This document shows, one piece after another, positions 36,725 to 37,279 of a stretch of 64,000 nucleotides of DNA. Every line of letters begins with the position of its first letter. The first letter of the stretch is position 1. Position numbers and translations under genes: made by a program. The notes beneath the pieces are model-generated. The model made no database searches. It was not told the DNA's origin and saw only the letters and a program-made list of their open reading frames with translations. The stretch comes from an uncultured Mycoplasmatota bacterium. GTDB taxonomy: Bacteria; Bacillota_I; Bacilli_A; RF39; UBA660. The stretch lies in the NCBI GenBank assembly GCA_945949305.1, contig CAMFED010000002.1:14605-78604 (forward strand), given 5' to 3'.

Positions 36725-37279
36725 TGGTGGAACTAAAGGGGATCGAACCCTTGACCTCCTGCTTTACCCGACAATGCTTACAAGGTTTTAAGAACCTCCT
36801 CATCTACGCAATCCTTTAAGAAAGTAATGCCTTTGGTTTGACCATTTTTTGGCTTTAAAATTCTTAAATTCTTTTCATTGGAACATTGTTCCACAGGGAT
36901 TAAATAATTTTTTCCCTCGTAATGAGTTACAAAGTAATCACAATCCTCTTTTGAATACTGATTGCGTTTATATTGACTATTTTTAGTGTAGCCTGATTGC
37001 CAAGTAGTTTTAATAGTCAAATAATCTACAATATTTTCTTCATTCAAATGAGGATTAGCGTGCTTACATTGTAACCGATATAATTGTCCATTTACATCAA
37101 CAATCATATCATATTTTTCACTATCCCCATAAGGAATTGATACTGGATAACCAAGTTCATAAAATCGTGTGATACATTGCAATTCTGTTAGATTTCCAAG
37201 ATATTTTGTACTCATAATACTTATTACCTTGTAAGTCTATCAAGCAAGGCAGGCGCTCTCCCAGCTGAGCTATAGCCCC
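36725..37279 (-). tRNA. tRNA-Ala-like gene (G3:U70) interrupted in the anticodon loop by an intervening sequence of about 480 bp; exons about 37244-37279 and 36725-36764
   Basis: 5' exon GGGGCTATAGCTCAGCTGGGAGAGCGCCTGC-CTTGC (Ala-type acceptor, D-arm and anticodon stem). 3' exon AA-GCAGG-AGGTC-AAGGGTTCGATCCCCTT-TAGTTCC-A-CCA. The acceptor pairs with G3.U70 and G4.U69, and the anticodon would be UGC if the junction is at C36/A37. Confidence 0.55.
36778..37215 (-). CDS. intron-encoded putative endonuclease (PD-(D/E)XK-like?) within the tRNA-Ala intervening sequence
   Basis: 145-aa TAG-free ORF lying entirely inside the tRNA intron. YDMIVDVNGQLYRLQCK resembles a D...(E/Q)xK nuclease core. An intron-encoded PD-(D/E)XK homing endonuclease (I-Ssp6803I) is known in a tRNA-fMet intron. 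Confidence 0.4.
   Translation of the reverse strand: MSTKYLGNLTELQCITRFYELGYPVSIPYGDSEKYDMIVDVNGQLYRLQCKHANPHLNEENIVDYLTIKTTWQSGYTKNSQYKRNQYSKEDCDYFVTHYEGKNYLIPVEQCSNEKNLRILKPKNGQTKGITFLKDCVDEEVLKTL

What the first reader, a model, noticed from the sequence alone, without database searches (positions are those of the whole stretch)
36725..37279. tRNA-Ala gene split in the anticodon loop by a ~480-bp intron carrying an endonuclease-like ORF
The 5' part (37279 down to about 37244) matches tRNA-Ala through the 5' strand of the anticodon stem plus CTTGC. The 3' part (36764 down to 36725) supplies AA, the 3' strand of the anticodon stem, the variable loop AGGTC, the T-arm, acceptor and CCA. The acceptor pairs with G3.U70, the AlaRS identity element. 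The intervening sequence contains a TAG-free 145-aa ORF (36778-37215) with a PD-(D/E)XK-like core. The precedent is group I introns in bacterial tRNA anticodon loops, for example tRNA-fMet with I-Ssp6803I. Exact splice sites matter here. The junction CTTGC/AA gives anticodon UGC (Ala). Group-I rules (U at -1, G at the intron end) would instead give CTT/TAAA with anticodon UUA on an Ala-identity body, which would be a nonsense suppressor. I cannot resolve this by eye.
Basis: seen in the sequence. Interest (0 to 1): 0.7.

Follow-up and report, generated by a model that had tools for sequence, protein, structure and literature searches.

The report
Mobile non-group-I intron splitting phage tRNA-Ala
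A phage alanine-tRNA gene is cut in two, exactly after the anticodon, by a mobile 479-base element that carries a DNA-cutting "homing" enzyme but has no self-splicing RNA core, so an unknown, probably protein-based, mechanism would have to remove it from the tRNA.

Summary
On the minus strand, 37279-37244 and 36764-36725 are the two halves of a tRNA-Ala(UGC) with G3:U70. They are separated by 479 nt that hold a 145-aa PD-(D/E)XK homing endonuclease (Pfam PF11645, related to I-Ssp6803I).

Two sibling phage contigs carry the uninterrupted gene at the same locus. This fixes the insertion point at C36|A37, so the anticodon is UGC and not the UUA suppressor.

It is not a group I intron:
- Only 41 non-coding nt remain.
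- Rfam finds no ribozyme.
- The nucleotide at -1 is C and the last intron nucleotide is A.
- RNAalifold finds no conserved core inside the ORF.

About 30 related loci, in tRNA-Ala and tRNA-Val, share a covarying RNA rod instead. The anticodon stem continues through a 3-bp helix between the anticodon and the last three intron nucleotides, then a 7-bp intron stem, a small internal loop, and a stem that closes the ORF.

Intron and host-gene histories disagree, so the element is actively mobile.

Best reading: a mobile, endonuclease-bearing tRNA intron of a non-ribozyme type. It is probably removed by protein cleavage and ligation, and the phage encodes an RNA ligase and polynucleotide kinase repair set. 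Splicing itself is unproven.

The parts
37244..37279 (-). 5' exon of tRNA-Ala(UGC): positions 1-36, ending with anticodon U34 G35 C36
   Evidence: Sequence; ARAGORN with introns; identical to the 5' part of the intron-less allele in L055/L056.
36765..37243 (-). 479-nt intervening sequence (TTGATAGAC...GTCGGGTA), inserted exactly between C36 and A37
   Evidence: Presence/absence comparison with L055/L056. The same element sits at the same site in about 30 loci.
36725..36764 (-). 3' exon of tRNA-Ala: A37 A38, anticodon-stem 3' strand, variable loop AGGTC, T arm, acceptor 3' strand with U70, A73, CCA
36778..37215 (-). 145-aa PD-(D/E)XK homing-endonuclease ORF (stop codon included); D36...Q49-x-K51 motif conserved
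   Evidence: the ORF listing; Pfam PF11645 E 4.5e-23; PDB 2OST E 1.5e-5; 223 homologues, with invariant E11, D36, Q49, K51 in alignment A1.
37237..37243 (-). Intron nt 1-7 (UUGAUAG): 5' strand of the 7-bp intron-only stem that abuts the 5' splice site
   Evidence: MFE fold; covariation UG/UA/AU/CG, AU/GC, GU/AU/GC in alignment A2; recovered independently by RNAalifold on full-length introns.
36768..36774 (-). Intron nt n-9..n-3 (UUGUCGG): 3' strand of the 7-bp intron-only stem
36765..36767 (-). Last three intron nt (GUA), paired with anticodon C36, G35, U34: the exon-intron central helix. The 3' splice site follows it
   Evidence: Pairs 8-52, 9-51 and 10-50 are 100% paired in 23 distinct sequences. 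In other intron lineages the tail changes with the anticodon: AAA with Lys UUU, ACA with Thr GGU, GUA with Val UAC.
37227..37235 (-). Intron nt 9-17 (CUUACAAGG): 5' strand of the stem that closes the ORF. A8 (37236) is an invariant unpaired base
36777..36785 (-). CCUUGUAAG: 3' strand of the ORF-closing stem, containing the stop codon TAA (36778-36780). It is followed by unpaired C and A (36776, 36775)
   Evidence: The stop codon lies 13 nt from the 3' splice site in 25 of 26 loci.
26099..27508 (-). Phage RNA ligase: candidate sealing enzyme. The link to the intron is inferred, not shown
   Evidence: PHROG 968 'RNA ligase' E 1.8e-65; Pfam RNA_ligase PF09414 E 1e-5, just below the family cut-off; conserved in siblings and at least 260 IMG/VR contigs.
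17670..18284 (-). Polynucleotide-kinase-like P-loop protein: candidate end-healing enzyme. The link is inferred
   Evidence: Pfam AAA_33 E 1.2e-16; PHROG 505 'polynucleotide kinase' E 1e-19; PDB 4XRP Pnkp1 E 1e-3.

Best explanation
This is a mobile genetic element made of a PD-(D/E)XK homing-endonuclease gene wrapped in about 40 nt of structured RNA. It has inserted exactly between nucleotides 36 and 37 of a phage tRNA-Ala(UGC) gene.

Shown:
- The insertion point.
- The endonuclease family.
- Presence/absence polymorphism between sibling phages.
- Intron and host-gene histories that disagree, so the element moves horizontally. This fits cleavage of the palindromic anticodon stem-loop DNA (CCTGC-C-TTGCAA-GCAGG) of empty alleles followed by repair from the occupied allele.
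- An RNA-level rod kept by compensatory change. The anticodon stem is prolonged by U33-A37. Next comes a 3-bp helix between the anticodon and the last three intron bases, then a 7-bp intron stem, an A/CA internal loop, and a stem of 9 bp or more that closes the ORF and contains its stop codon.

Inferred: the element behaves as a tRNA intron that is not a ribozyme. Both splice sites lie at the 3' ends of the two strands of the exon-intron central helix. That is the topology of archaeal bulge-helix-bulge introns, but without the bulges. I propose that an endonuclease, not yet identified and either host or phage encoded, cuts the pre-tRNA at those two sites. An RNA ligase then rejoins the halves in the anticodon loop. 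The candidate is the phage's own RNA ligase, with its polynucleotide kinase and phosphoesterase healing set if the ends need it.

The closed rod would also protect the endonuclease message, and probably masks the AAGG upstream of its start codon.
For: - **Insertion point and mobility.** L055 and L056 have the uninterrupted gene with the same flanks. In L056 the neighbouring tRNA-Lys is interrupted instead. Intron and flank identities are discordant: 95-96% against 66-86%, and the reverse, 76% against 97-100%.
- **Endonuclease.**
- **Not group I.** Rfam gives nothing at the gathering score or at E<=10, and nothing in 16 related loci. The untranslated parts are 22-31 nt and 13 nt. Synonymous change is even along the ORF. 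RNAalifold on 24 full-length introns recovers only the terminal rod.
- **Rod is real.** 95.3% of cells are paired, against 81% in shuffles and 33-45% when partners are slid. Thirteen pairs change on both sides. G-U, A-U and G-C interchange, which points to RNA pairing and not to DNA inverted repeats.
- **The tail tracks the anticodon.** This holds across Ala, Val, Lys and Thr intron lineages.
- **Intact tRNAs.** 25 of 25 complete relatives give an intact tRNA after in-silico splicing. The anticodon matches the body identity, and G3:U70 is present in the Ala acceptor stems that I read.
- **RNA repair and ligation genes in the window.**
- **A second, different non-group-I insert in the same tRNA cluster.** It has ORF-less 70-nt relatives, so these phages tolerate such inserts generally.
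- **Published parallel.** 'Enigmatic' phage tRNA introns were reported in Lak phages (PMC6784885).
Against: - No spliced product has been seen, and nothing here measures RNA.
- No endonuclease able to cut at these sites was identified in the window. The sites lie in a predicted continuous helix, not in the bulges or loops that known splicing endonucleases use.
- The stagger between the two sites differs between lineages: 3 nt for Ala, Val, Lys and Thr, and 5 nt for Pro. This argues against one simple symmetric double-strand RNase.
- The intron moves often. Intact exons and their compensatory differences may therefore reflect recent invasion of healthy genes, not selection after insertion.
- No ORF-less derivative of this intron type was found.
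- The RNA ligase is a general feature of this phage group, so its presence is weak evidence.
Confidence: 0.5

Rival explanations
1. Unspliced selfish insertion. The homing-endonuclease gene has landed in, and inactivated, a dispensable phage tRNA gene. The terminal rod serves only the endonuclease gene, for example through message stability, translational masking, or release from the polycistronic tRNA transcript by a double-strand RNase. Intact exons simply reflect frequent, recent homing into healthy alleles.
For: - The element moves often and recently.
- There is presence/absence polymorphism between siblings that are otherwise nearly identical, so the tRNA may be dispensable.
- Phage tRNAs are accessory genes (general knowledge).
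- L041 shows a rearranged copy beside an intact tRNA-Ala.
- L049's exon sequence looks degenerate.
- The ORF-closing stem covers the AAGG upstream of the start codon.
Against: - The intron's last three bases are complementary to the host anticodon in four different tRNA specificities. These pairs are kept in all 23 distinct sequences. A gene-expression role gives no reason for pairing with the exon.
- 25 of 25 complete copies have flawless halves.
- The element is very abundant, with more than 220 protein variants. That is hard to reconcile with a lesion in every carrier.
Confidence: 0.25
2. Cryptic self-splicing or self-cleaving RNA. This would be either a group I core hidden inside the coding sequence, or a new small ribozyme formed by the conserved rod and its invariant A8/CA loop. 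In the small-ribozyme case the ends would be joined by RtcB or another RNA ligase.
For: - All previously described bacterial tRNA introns with PF11645 endonucleases are group I (PMC13011429; I-Ssp6803I from established knowledge).
- The rod has invariant unpaired bases, A8 and A42 of alignment A2.
- Rfam's group I model is known to miss divergent members (general knowledge).
Against: - There is no Rfam match to any intron or small-ribozyme family at E<=10.
- Known group I tRNA introns are at least 184 nt and exceed 500 nt when they carry an endonuclease gene. Here 41 nt are non-coding.
- The nucleotide at -1 is C and the last nucleotide is A at a junction fixed by the empty allele.
- No zone of suppressed synonymous change and no covarying internal helices were found.
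- The two splice-site contexts share no sequence.
Confidence: 0.12
3. The group-I-rule reading raised by the first reader. Splicing at CTT|...GGG|TAAA makes a UUA-anticodon, alanine-accepting nonsense suppressor for this stop-codon-recoded phage.
For: - ARAGORN prints this junction.
- The phage does recode TAG.
- L002 carries separate uninterrupted tRNA(UUA) and tRNA(CUA) genes.
Against: - The empty allele shows the element sits at 36/37 in a normal UGC tRNA.
- The same element sits in tRNA-Val bodies with UAC.
- TAA is the commonest stop codon of long ORFs here, 27 of 49.
- The recoded codon is TAG. It aligns with Glu in homologues of this very ORF (NLT*LQC against NLTELQC). That fits a polar residue such as Gln, as reported for related phages, and not Ala.
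- There is no group I core.
Confidence: 0.02

Closest known systems
Group I intron of Synechocystis tRNA-fMet encoding I-Ssp6803I, and other bacterial tRNA group I introns carrying PF11645 endonucleases
   Same: Same endonuclease family. Both sit in the anticodon loop of a tRNA gene. The target is the pseudo-palindromic anticodon stem-loop DNA. Both are mobile.
   Different: Those introns have a ribozyme of about 200 nt or more, a U at -1 and a terminal G, and they self-splice. They exceed 500 nt when they carry an endonuclease gene. Here only 41 nt are non-coding, -1 is C, the last base is A, and no core is detectable.
Archaeal bulge-helix-bulge (BHB) introns of tRNA and rRNA. Some archaeal rRNA BHB introns carry LAGLIDADG homing endonucleases (from memory)
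   Same: The position is next to the canonical 37/38 site. There are three stacked helices: exon-exon, then 5'-exon paired with the intron 3' end, then intron-intron. Both splice sites lie at the 3' ends of the two strands of the central helix. An ORF can sit in the distal loop. No ribozyme is involved.
   Different: The central helix is 3 bp (5 bp in the Pro lineage), not 4 bp. The two 3-nt bulges are absent. Covariation supports pairing of the bases that would have to bulge. No EndA-type splicing endonuclease is known in Bacteria, and none was seen among the window proteins that I scanned.
'Enigmatic' tRNA introns of Lak megaphages (Devoto et al. 2019, PMC6784885)
   Same: Both are phage tRNA genes with inserts that match no Rfam intron family. 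Both occur in stop-codon-recoded gut phages and show presence/absence between related genomes.
   Different: No endonuclease-bearing insert is mentioned in the passages I read. One Lak insert looks like a tRNA, which is the type I found in this window's tRNA-Gly and not in tRNA-Ala. That paper proposed no structure or mechanism.
Phage T4 tRNA repair (PrrC cut in the tRNA-Lys anticodon loop, healed by Pnkp and sealed by Rnl1), and fungal/plant tRNA splicing by Trl1 (from established knowledge)
   Same: Both rejoin a tRNA broken in the anticodon loop using a kinase/phosphoesterase and an ATP-dependent RNA ligase. This phage encodes such a set.
   Different: In T4 the break is damage inflicted by the host, not intron removal. 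A role of the ligase in splicing here is only inferred.
Free-standing homing endonucleases in phage tRNA clusters, for example T4 SegB (from memory)
   Same: Both are homing endonucleases that target phage tRNA gene regions and spread in co-infections.
   Different: Those lie between genes and do not interrupt a tRNA. L041 may be such a free-standing derivative of the present family.

Membership tests
tRNA-Ala(UGC) gene | Complete cloverleaf once the halves are joined | tested here: met
   ARAGORN calls tRNA-Ala(tgc) on the joined exons. The natural intron-less allele, which differs by 1 nt, scores 71.7 bits with Rfam RF00005.
tRNA-Ala(UGC) gene | G3:U70 AlaRS identity pair | tested here: met
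   GGGGCTA/TAGTTCC in the window. G3:U70 is also present in the acceptor stems of the related split tRNA-Ala genes that I read, despite varied stems. Not every one of the 22 was checked.
PD-(D/E)XK homing endonucleases, I-Ssp6803I family (Pfam PF11645) | Significant match to the family profile and to the solved member | tested here: met
   PF11645 at 82.2 bits against a cut-off of 26.1, E 4.5e-23. PDB 2OST at E 1.5e-5 over residues 2-109.
PD-(D/E)XK homing endonucleases, I-Ssp6803I family (Pfam PF11645) | Catalytic acid...(E/Q)-x-K signature conserved | tested here: met
   E11, D36, Q49 and K51 are invariant in 27 sequences. They align with YD...QVK of 2OST.
PD-(D/E)XK homing endonucleases, I-Ssp6803I family (Pfam PF11645) | Cleaves the intron-less allele near the insertion site | not testable with these tools
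   Needs an enzyme assay on the L055/L056 allele.
Mobile (homing) intervening sequence | Precise presence/absence at one site in otherwise homologous genes | tested here: met
   Window against L055/L056.
Mobile (homing) intervening sequence | History of the element differs from that of the host gene | tested here: met
   Intron 95-96% against flanks 66-86% (L032/L035, L046/L048). Intron 76% against exons and downstream flank 97-100% (window/L045).
Group I intron | Conserved catalytic core (P3-P9) detectable by covariance model | tested here: not met
   No RF00028 or other intron family at the gathering score or at E<=10. None in 16 related loci.
Group I intron | U at -1 (G-U pair in P1) and G as the last intron nucleotide | tested here: not met
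   The junction fixed by the empty allele is C36|U...A|A37.
Group I intron | At least about 180 nt of structured RNA under selection | tested here: not met
   41 nt are non-coding. No synonymous-site constraint or covarying internal helices were found. The published minimum for tRNA introns is 184 nt.
Group I intron | Self-splicing with guanosine | not testable with these tools
   Needs an in-vitro splicing assay.
Bulge-helix-bulge (archaeal-type) intron | 4-bp central helix flanked by two 3-nt bulges that contain the splice sites | tested here: not met
   MFE and covariation give a continuous helix. The bases that would have to bulge (intron nt 1-2 and n-3, n-4) covary as pairs.
Bulge-helix-bulge (archaeal-type) intron | Central helix formed by the 5'-exon end and the intron 3' end, between an exon-exon helix and an intron-intron helix | tested here: met
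   Structure supported.
Bulge-helix-bulge (archaeal-type) intron | EndA-type splicing endonuclease available | tested here: inconclusive
   None among the roughly 30 window proteins scanned with Pfam or PHROGs. The rest of the phage and the host were not examined.

The most novel reading that the evidence does not exclude
Gut and rumen phages of Clostridia may carry a class of tRNA introns that are removed by proteins and not by a ribozyme. This would be a bacterial-world counterpart of archaeal and eukaryal tRNA splicing. The intron would be defined by a bulge-less three-helix rod in which the anticodon pairs with the intron's last bases. It would be cut by an unidentified endonuclease, sealed by the phage's RNA-repair ligase, and spread by PD-(D/E)XK homing endonucleases. 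The tRNA-like insert in the neighbouring tRNA-Gly would be a second such class, possibly excised by RNase P-type processing.
Probability: 0.35. Interest if true: 0.9.

Novelty: new variant of a known kind. Interest (0 to 1): 0.72.

Why it matters
Every bacterial or phage tRNA intron with a known mechanism is a self-splicing group I intron, or rarely group II. Protein-catalysed tRNA splicing is regarded as an archaeal and eukaryal trait.

This element has the mobility module of a classical mobile intron but has replaced the ribozyme with about 40 nt of helix. Yet it is abundant, with more than 220 protein variants and dozens of phage tRNA-Ala, Val, Lys, Thr and Pro genes.

If it is spliced, bacteria or their phages have an unrecognised tRNA cut-and-join pathway. 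That would give a biological role, beyond damage repair, to the RNA ligase, kinase and phosphoesterase sets common in large phages. It would also provide a testable model for the 'enigmatic' tRNA introns reported in Lak phages.

If it is not spliced, it shows homing endonucleases routinely knocking out phage tRNA genes. That would matter for how phage tRNA repertoires are counted.

There is also a practical point. Standard annotation misses these tRNAs or mislabels them. Here the labels were 'tRNA-Stop', 'tRNA-Val' and 'tRNA-Leu', for genes that I read as Ala and Gly.

Tried and rejected
- **Group I or any Rfam family.** Scans at the gathering score and at E<=10 over the intron, the second intron and 18 related loci found only tRNAs and tmRNAs.
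- **Ribozyme hidden in the ORF.** The synonymous-site profile and RNAalifold on 24 full-length introns were both negative.
- **BHB register.** An alternative pairing with a 4-bp central helix and 3-nt bulges was checked by hand against the alignment. It is not supported, because n-3 and n-4 covary with intron nt 1 and 2, not with C32 and U33.
- **RNase III.** Its 2-nt 3' stagger would leave one extra A in the loop. The stagger also differs between lineages, 3 against 5 nt.
- **RNase P acting on a 7-bp 'acceptor-like' stem.** This is attractive for the Ala type, but the stem next to the splice site is not 7 bp in the Lys and Pro lineages.
- **DNA-level terminal inverted repeats (a transposon).** Rejected because G-U pairs are frequent and interchange with A-U and G-C.
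- **Promoter reading of TTGATA...TATTAT at the intron start.** Rejected because transcription would start inside the ORF.
- **ORF-less derivatives of this intron.** A pattern scan of IMG/VR gave 83 matches, about the chance number by my rough estimate, and none lay in a tRNA.
- **Exact intron-less allele by full 3'-exon pattern.** No match, because of one T-loop difference. It was then found through the exon/tRNA-Cys junction.
- **Co-occurrence of the RNA ligase with intron-bearing contigs.** Uninformative, because the ligase is general in this phage group.
- **GenBank phage collection.** Only generic tRNA-Lys matches.
- **Literature.** Six searches found no description of endonuclease-bearing non-group-I phage tRNA introns. 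The papers on I-Ssp6803I cleavage geometry were not held.
- **Distant PF11645 relatives (L011-L024).** A duplex-fold search for flanking helices was uninformative.
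Full report
**Setting**

All long ORFs in the window lie on the minus strand. Reading through TAG raises ORF coverage from 0.44-0.76 to 0.75-1.0 in 1-16 kb and 36-64 kb. This is a TAG-recoded phage-like genome.

A tRNA cluster occupies 36642-39999 on the minus strand. 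Default tools report Cys, Lys, Leu(UAA), Thr and an odd 'Leu(caa)'.

**The observation**

The minus strand at 37279-37244 is the first 36 nt of a tRNA-Ala. It contains the acceptor strand GGGGCTA, the D arm, the anticodon-stem strand CCTGC and the loop bases CTTGC.

The stretch 36764-36725 supplies AA, GCAGG, AGGTC, the T arm, TAGTTCC, A and CCA.

ARAGORN with intron search returns one gene at c[36725,37279] with a 479-nt insert. It prints 'tRNA-Stop(tta)'. Any split of the 7-nt loop between the two flanks gives the same insert length, so that label carries no information.

The ORF 36778-37215 (145 aa) matches Pfam PDDEXK_5 (PF11645) at E 4.5e-23. It matches PDB 2OST, which from memory is I-Ssp6803I, at E 1.5e-5. 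E11, D36, Q49 and K51 are invariant among relatives.

**Where exactly the insert sits**

Two IMG/VR contigs from sibling phages are L055 (201 kb) and L056 (44 kb). They share the upstream spacer (TATAGTCAAAGTCTAGGCAACAAGGTTTTATAT) and the downstream tRNA-Cys with the window.

Both carry an uninterrupted tRNA-Ala that reads ...GCGCCTGCCTTGC|AAGCAGGAGG.... It scores 71.7 bits with Rfam tRNA.

Shifting the junction by one base in either direction does not reproduce this sequence. The insert is therefore TTGATAG...GTCGGGTA, between C36 and A37, and the anticodon is UGC.

I collected 29 related loci from IMG/VR, JGI/ENA metagenomes and MAGs binned as Acutalibacteraceae, Eubacteriales and Ruminococcus. 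Joining the exons at the same point in a working set of 26 sequences, the window included, gives this result:
- tRNA-Ala(UGC) in 22 of 22 Ala-type loci
- tRNA-Val(UAC) in 3 of 3 complete Val-type loci

The anticodon in the 5' exon thus follows the identity of the body. This excludes the UUA suppressor reading.

**It is mobile**

In L056 the tRNA-Ala is intact. Its tRNA-Lys(UUU) is intact in the window at 37325-37400, but in L056 it is interrupted at 36/37 by a different 467-nt element of the same protein family.

Pairwise identities show that intron and host gene have separate histories:

| Pair | Intron | Flanks or exons |
|---|---|---|
| L032/L035 | 95% | flanks 74-86% |
| L046/L048 | 96% | flanks 66-74% |
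| window/L045 | 76% | exons and 200 nt downstream 97-100% |

The protein has 223 relatives at E<=1e-5 in the large protein collection.

The empty site CCTGC-C-TTGCAA-GCAGG is pseudo-palindromic. That is the kind of target described for the tetrameric I-Ssp6803I (PMC3384342).

**It is not a group I intron**

- The ORF leaves 28 nt upstream and 13 nt downstream. In relatives the figures are 22-31 nt upstream, and 13 nt downstream in 25 of 26.
- Rfam gives no intron or ribozyme match in the window at the gathering score, none in 36600-37420 at E<=10, and none in 16 related loci.
- At the junction fixed by the empty allele, the -1 base is C and the last intron base is A. These violate the U(-1) and terminal-G rules restated.
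- Bacterial tRNA group I introns are 184-894 nt long. They exceed 500 nt when they encode an endonuclease (PMC13011429).
- Codon-level synonymous conservation is flat along the ORF.
- RNAalifold on 24 full-length introns recovers only the terminal helices. Inside the ORF it finds just short helices with a single pair type.

**What the RNA does have**

The full pre-tRNA folds better than shuffled controls (z = -5.5), into a rod that prolongs the anticodon stem.

I built a gap-free 59-column alignment of 24 sequences: 10 exon nt, 17 intron nt, a linker, 21 intron nt and 7 exon nt. On it I tested this structure:
- anticodon stem
- C32 and A38 unpaired
- U33-A37
- U34-A(n), R35-U(n-1), C36-G(n-2)
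- seven intron-only pairs (nt 1-7 with n-9..n-3)
- A8 opposite C and A
- nine pairs closing the ORF, with the stop codon TAA inside the 3' strand

The counts support it:
- 95.3% of cells are paired, against 81.2% in shuffles (0 of 500 reach the observed value).
- Only 33-45% are paired when partners are slid by 1-3 columns.
- Thirteen pairs change on both sides.
- Intron-only pairs show UG/UA/AU/CG, AU/GC, AU/UA and GU/AU/GC.

The many G-U pairs that alternate with Watson-Crick pairs point to selection on RNA, not on DNA inverted repeats.

Other lineages of the family sit in tRNA-Lys(UUU) (L008 and L056, 36/37), tRNA-Thr(GGU) (L005, 36/37) and tRNA-Pro(UGG) (L006 and L007, 37/38). They fold into the same kind of rod.

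Their 3' tails change with the anticodon: AAA for Lys, ACA for Thr, GUA for Val and Ala, CYUGG for Pro.

This exon-intron complementarity is the strongest argument that the RNA is processed with reference to the tRNA.

**Topology**

There are three stacked helices: exon-exon, then 5'-exon end paired with the intron 3' end, then intron-intron. Both splice sites lie at the 3' ends of the two strands of the middle helix.

This is the topology of the archaeal bulge-helix-bulge motif. The defining bulges and the 4-bp spacing are absent, so I do not file it there.

The stagger is 3 nt in the 36/37 lineages and 5 nt in the Pro lineage. That argues against RNase III and against any single symmetric dsRNA nuclease.

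**Candidate machinery**

The window encodes the following proteins:

| Coordinates | Protein | Evidence |
|---|---|---|
| 26099-27508 | RNA ligase | PHROG 968, E 1.8e-65 |
| 27594-28361 | metallophosphoesterase | Pfam, PHROGs |
| 17085-17651 | metallophosphoesterase | Pfam, PHROGs |
| 28351-29163 | RlaP-like nucleotidyltransferase | Pfam RlaP, weak; PHROG 388 |
| 29637-29978 | cyclic-phosphate-processing receiver domain | PF20274, E 7.6e-20 |
| 30753-33239 | major-vault-protein-like protein | Pfam MVP shoulder domain |
| 33542-35074 | vWA/DUF2828 'RNA-binding' protein | PHROG 850 |
| 17670-18284 | polynucleotide-kinase-like protein | PDB 4XRP Pnkp1, E 1e-3 |

Such sets are usually read as tRNA repair, and they could equally seal tRNA halves. 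The ligase is common to at least 260 contigs of this phage group, so this is only circumstantial. I found no candidate splicing endonuclease.

**A second, different insert in the same cluster**

The region 37797-38725(-) is a tRNA-Gly(UCC). It has U73, G1-C72, C2-G71 and G3-C70. It is split at 35/36 by 852 nt.

ARAGORN calls it Val(cac). The default 'Leu(caa)' call is an artefact of its 3' part.

That insert begins with a 7-bp acceptor-like stem (GTTTTAT/ATAAGAC) and ends in ACCA. It contains a T-arm (GAG-TTCAAAT-CTC) and carries a GIY-YIG ORF with nine in-frame TAGs.

Relatives of 69-70 nt without an ORF fold into cloverleaves ending in NCCA. They sit in a tRNA-Gly (L012) and a tRNA-Asp (L037). 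The L012 insert scores 41 bits as a tRNA in its own right.

Devoto et al. 2019 described 'enigmatic' Lak-phage tRNA introns, including one that 'may encode a tRNA'.

So these phages host at least two kinds of non-group-I tRNA inserts. The ORF-less ones cannot persist by homing. This suggests that such inserts are tolerated because they are removed.

**Weighing**

Shown:
- the split gene
- the exact junction
- the endonuclease family
- mobility
- absence of a detectable ribozyme
- a covarying rod that includes exon-intron pairs

Inferred: the element is spliced, and proteins do the splicing.

The main rival is an unspliced, selfish knockout of a dispensable tRNA. It gains from the evidence of frequent recent transfer, which weakens any argument from intact exons. 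It does not explain the anticodon-tail complementarity.

I give the protein-spliced intron 0.5, the unspliced insertion 0.25, a cryptic ribozyme 0.12 and the suppressor reading 0.02.

**Novelty**

The parts are known: tRNA-Ala, a PF11645 homing endonuclease, and insertion in the anticodon loop. The combination without a ribozyme, the conserved rod and the breadth of the family are not described in the literature I could search. I class it as a new variant of a known kind. There is a substantial chance that it marks a new splicing route in the bacterial world.

Noticed in passing
window 37797-38725 (-): 5' exon 38689-38725, insert 37837-38688, 3' exon 37797-37836, ORF 37861-38604: A second split tRNA. 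By identity elements (U73, G1-C72, C2-G71, G3-C70) it is tRNA-Gly(UCC), interrupted at 35/36 by 852 nt. The insert is itself tRNA-like: a 7-bp acceptor-like stem, a T-arm GAG-TTCAAAT-CTC and a 3' ACCA. It carries a GIY-YIG endonuclease ORF with 9 in-frame TAGs. ARAGORN mislabels the gene Val(cac), and in default mode reports a spurious Leu(caa) at 37797-37883.
   Followed up: partly
L012 347-491 (insert about 384-452); L037 1495-1636: ORF-less 69-70-nt relatives of the tRNA-like insert, in a tRNA-Gly(UCC) and a tRNA-Asp(GUC). Both fold as cloverleaves with a tetraloop in place of the anticodon loop, and both end in NCCA exactly at the 3' junction. The L012 insert passes Rfam's tRNA threshold on its own (41 bits). 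This resembles the 'intron that may encode a tRNA' reported in Lak phages (PMC6784885).
   Followed up: partly
window 1-16000 and 36000-64000, against 15600-36600: Stop-codon recoding. In-frame TAGs occur in most genes of the outer regions, up to 14 per gene. A roughly 21-kb block (RNA repair, NAD salvage, an SLH-domain protein) has almost none. No tRNA(CUA) lies in the window. Relative L002 has both tRNA(CUA) and tRNA(UUA).
   Followed up: partly
window 26099-35074 and 17085-18284 (-): A large RNA-repair-type gene set: RNA ligase, two metallophosphoesterases, an RlaP-like nucleotidyltransferase, a cREC receiver domain (PF20274), a major-vault-protein-like 828-aa protein, a vWA/DUF2828/DUF7788 'RNA-binding' protein and a Pnkp1-like kinase.
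   Followed up: partly
L056 (reverse strand) 2921-3463: In this sibling phage the tRNA-Lys(UUU) that is intact in the window is interrupted at 36/37 (CTTTT|CACACAGG...GACTGAAA|AATGTGG) by a 467-nt element. The element encodes a different PD-(D/E)XK protein. The tRNA-Ala of that phage is uninterrupted.
   Followed up: partly
L041 about 150-740: A rearranged copy. The endonuclease ORF is preceded by only 15 nt of a tRNA-Ala 5' end. It is followed directly by an intact tRNA-Ala(UGC) whose loop is TTTGCAC. This may be a free-standing derivative next to a resistant target.
   Followed up: no
window 40086-52820 (-), GC 0.22-0.25: Read by eye from the translations, not scanned with any library: a YcaO-like protein (40086-41864), several radical-SAM/SPASM-like proteins and a glycosyltransferase-like protein. 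All have many in-frame TAGs. Possibly a peptide-modification cluster.
   Followed up: no
window 19707-24375 (-): NAD-salvage-type genes. NadE-like, macro-domain, NAMPT-like and PRPP-synthase-like proteins were identified by eye only. The isochorismatase/nicotinamidase family is confirmed by Pfam PF00857.
   Followed up: no
L037 563-618: A weak match to the Faecalibacterium HDV-like ribozyme family (28 bits, below the gathering score of 44), about 10 nt upstream of a split tRNA-Ala.
   Followed up: no
L002 1183-2035: A tRNA called Asp(gtc) by ARAGORN with a 780-nt insert, in the same cluster as the split tRNA-Ala of that phage. The insert type was not examined.
   Followed up: no
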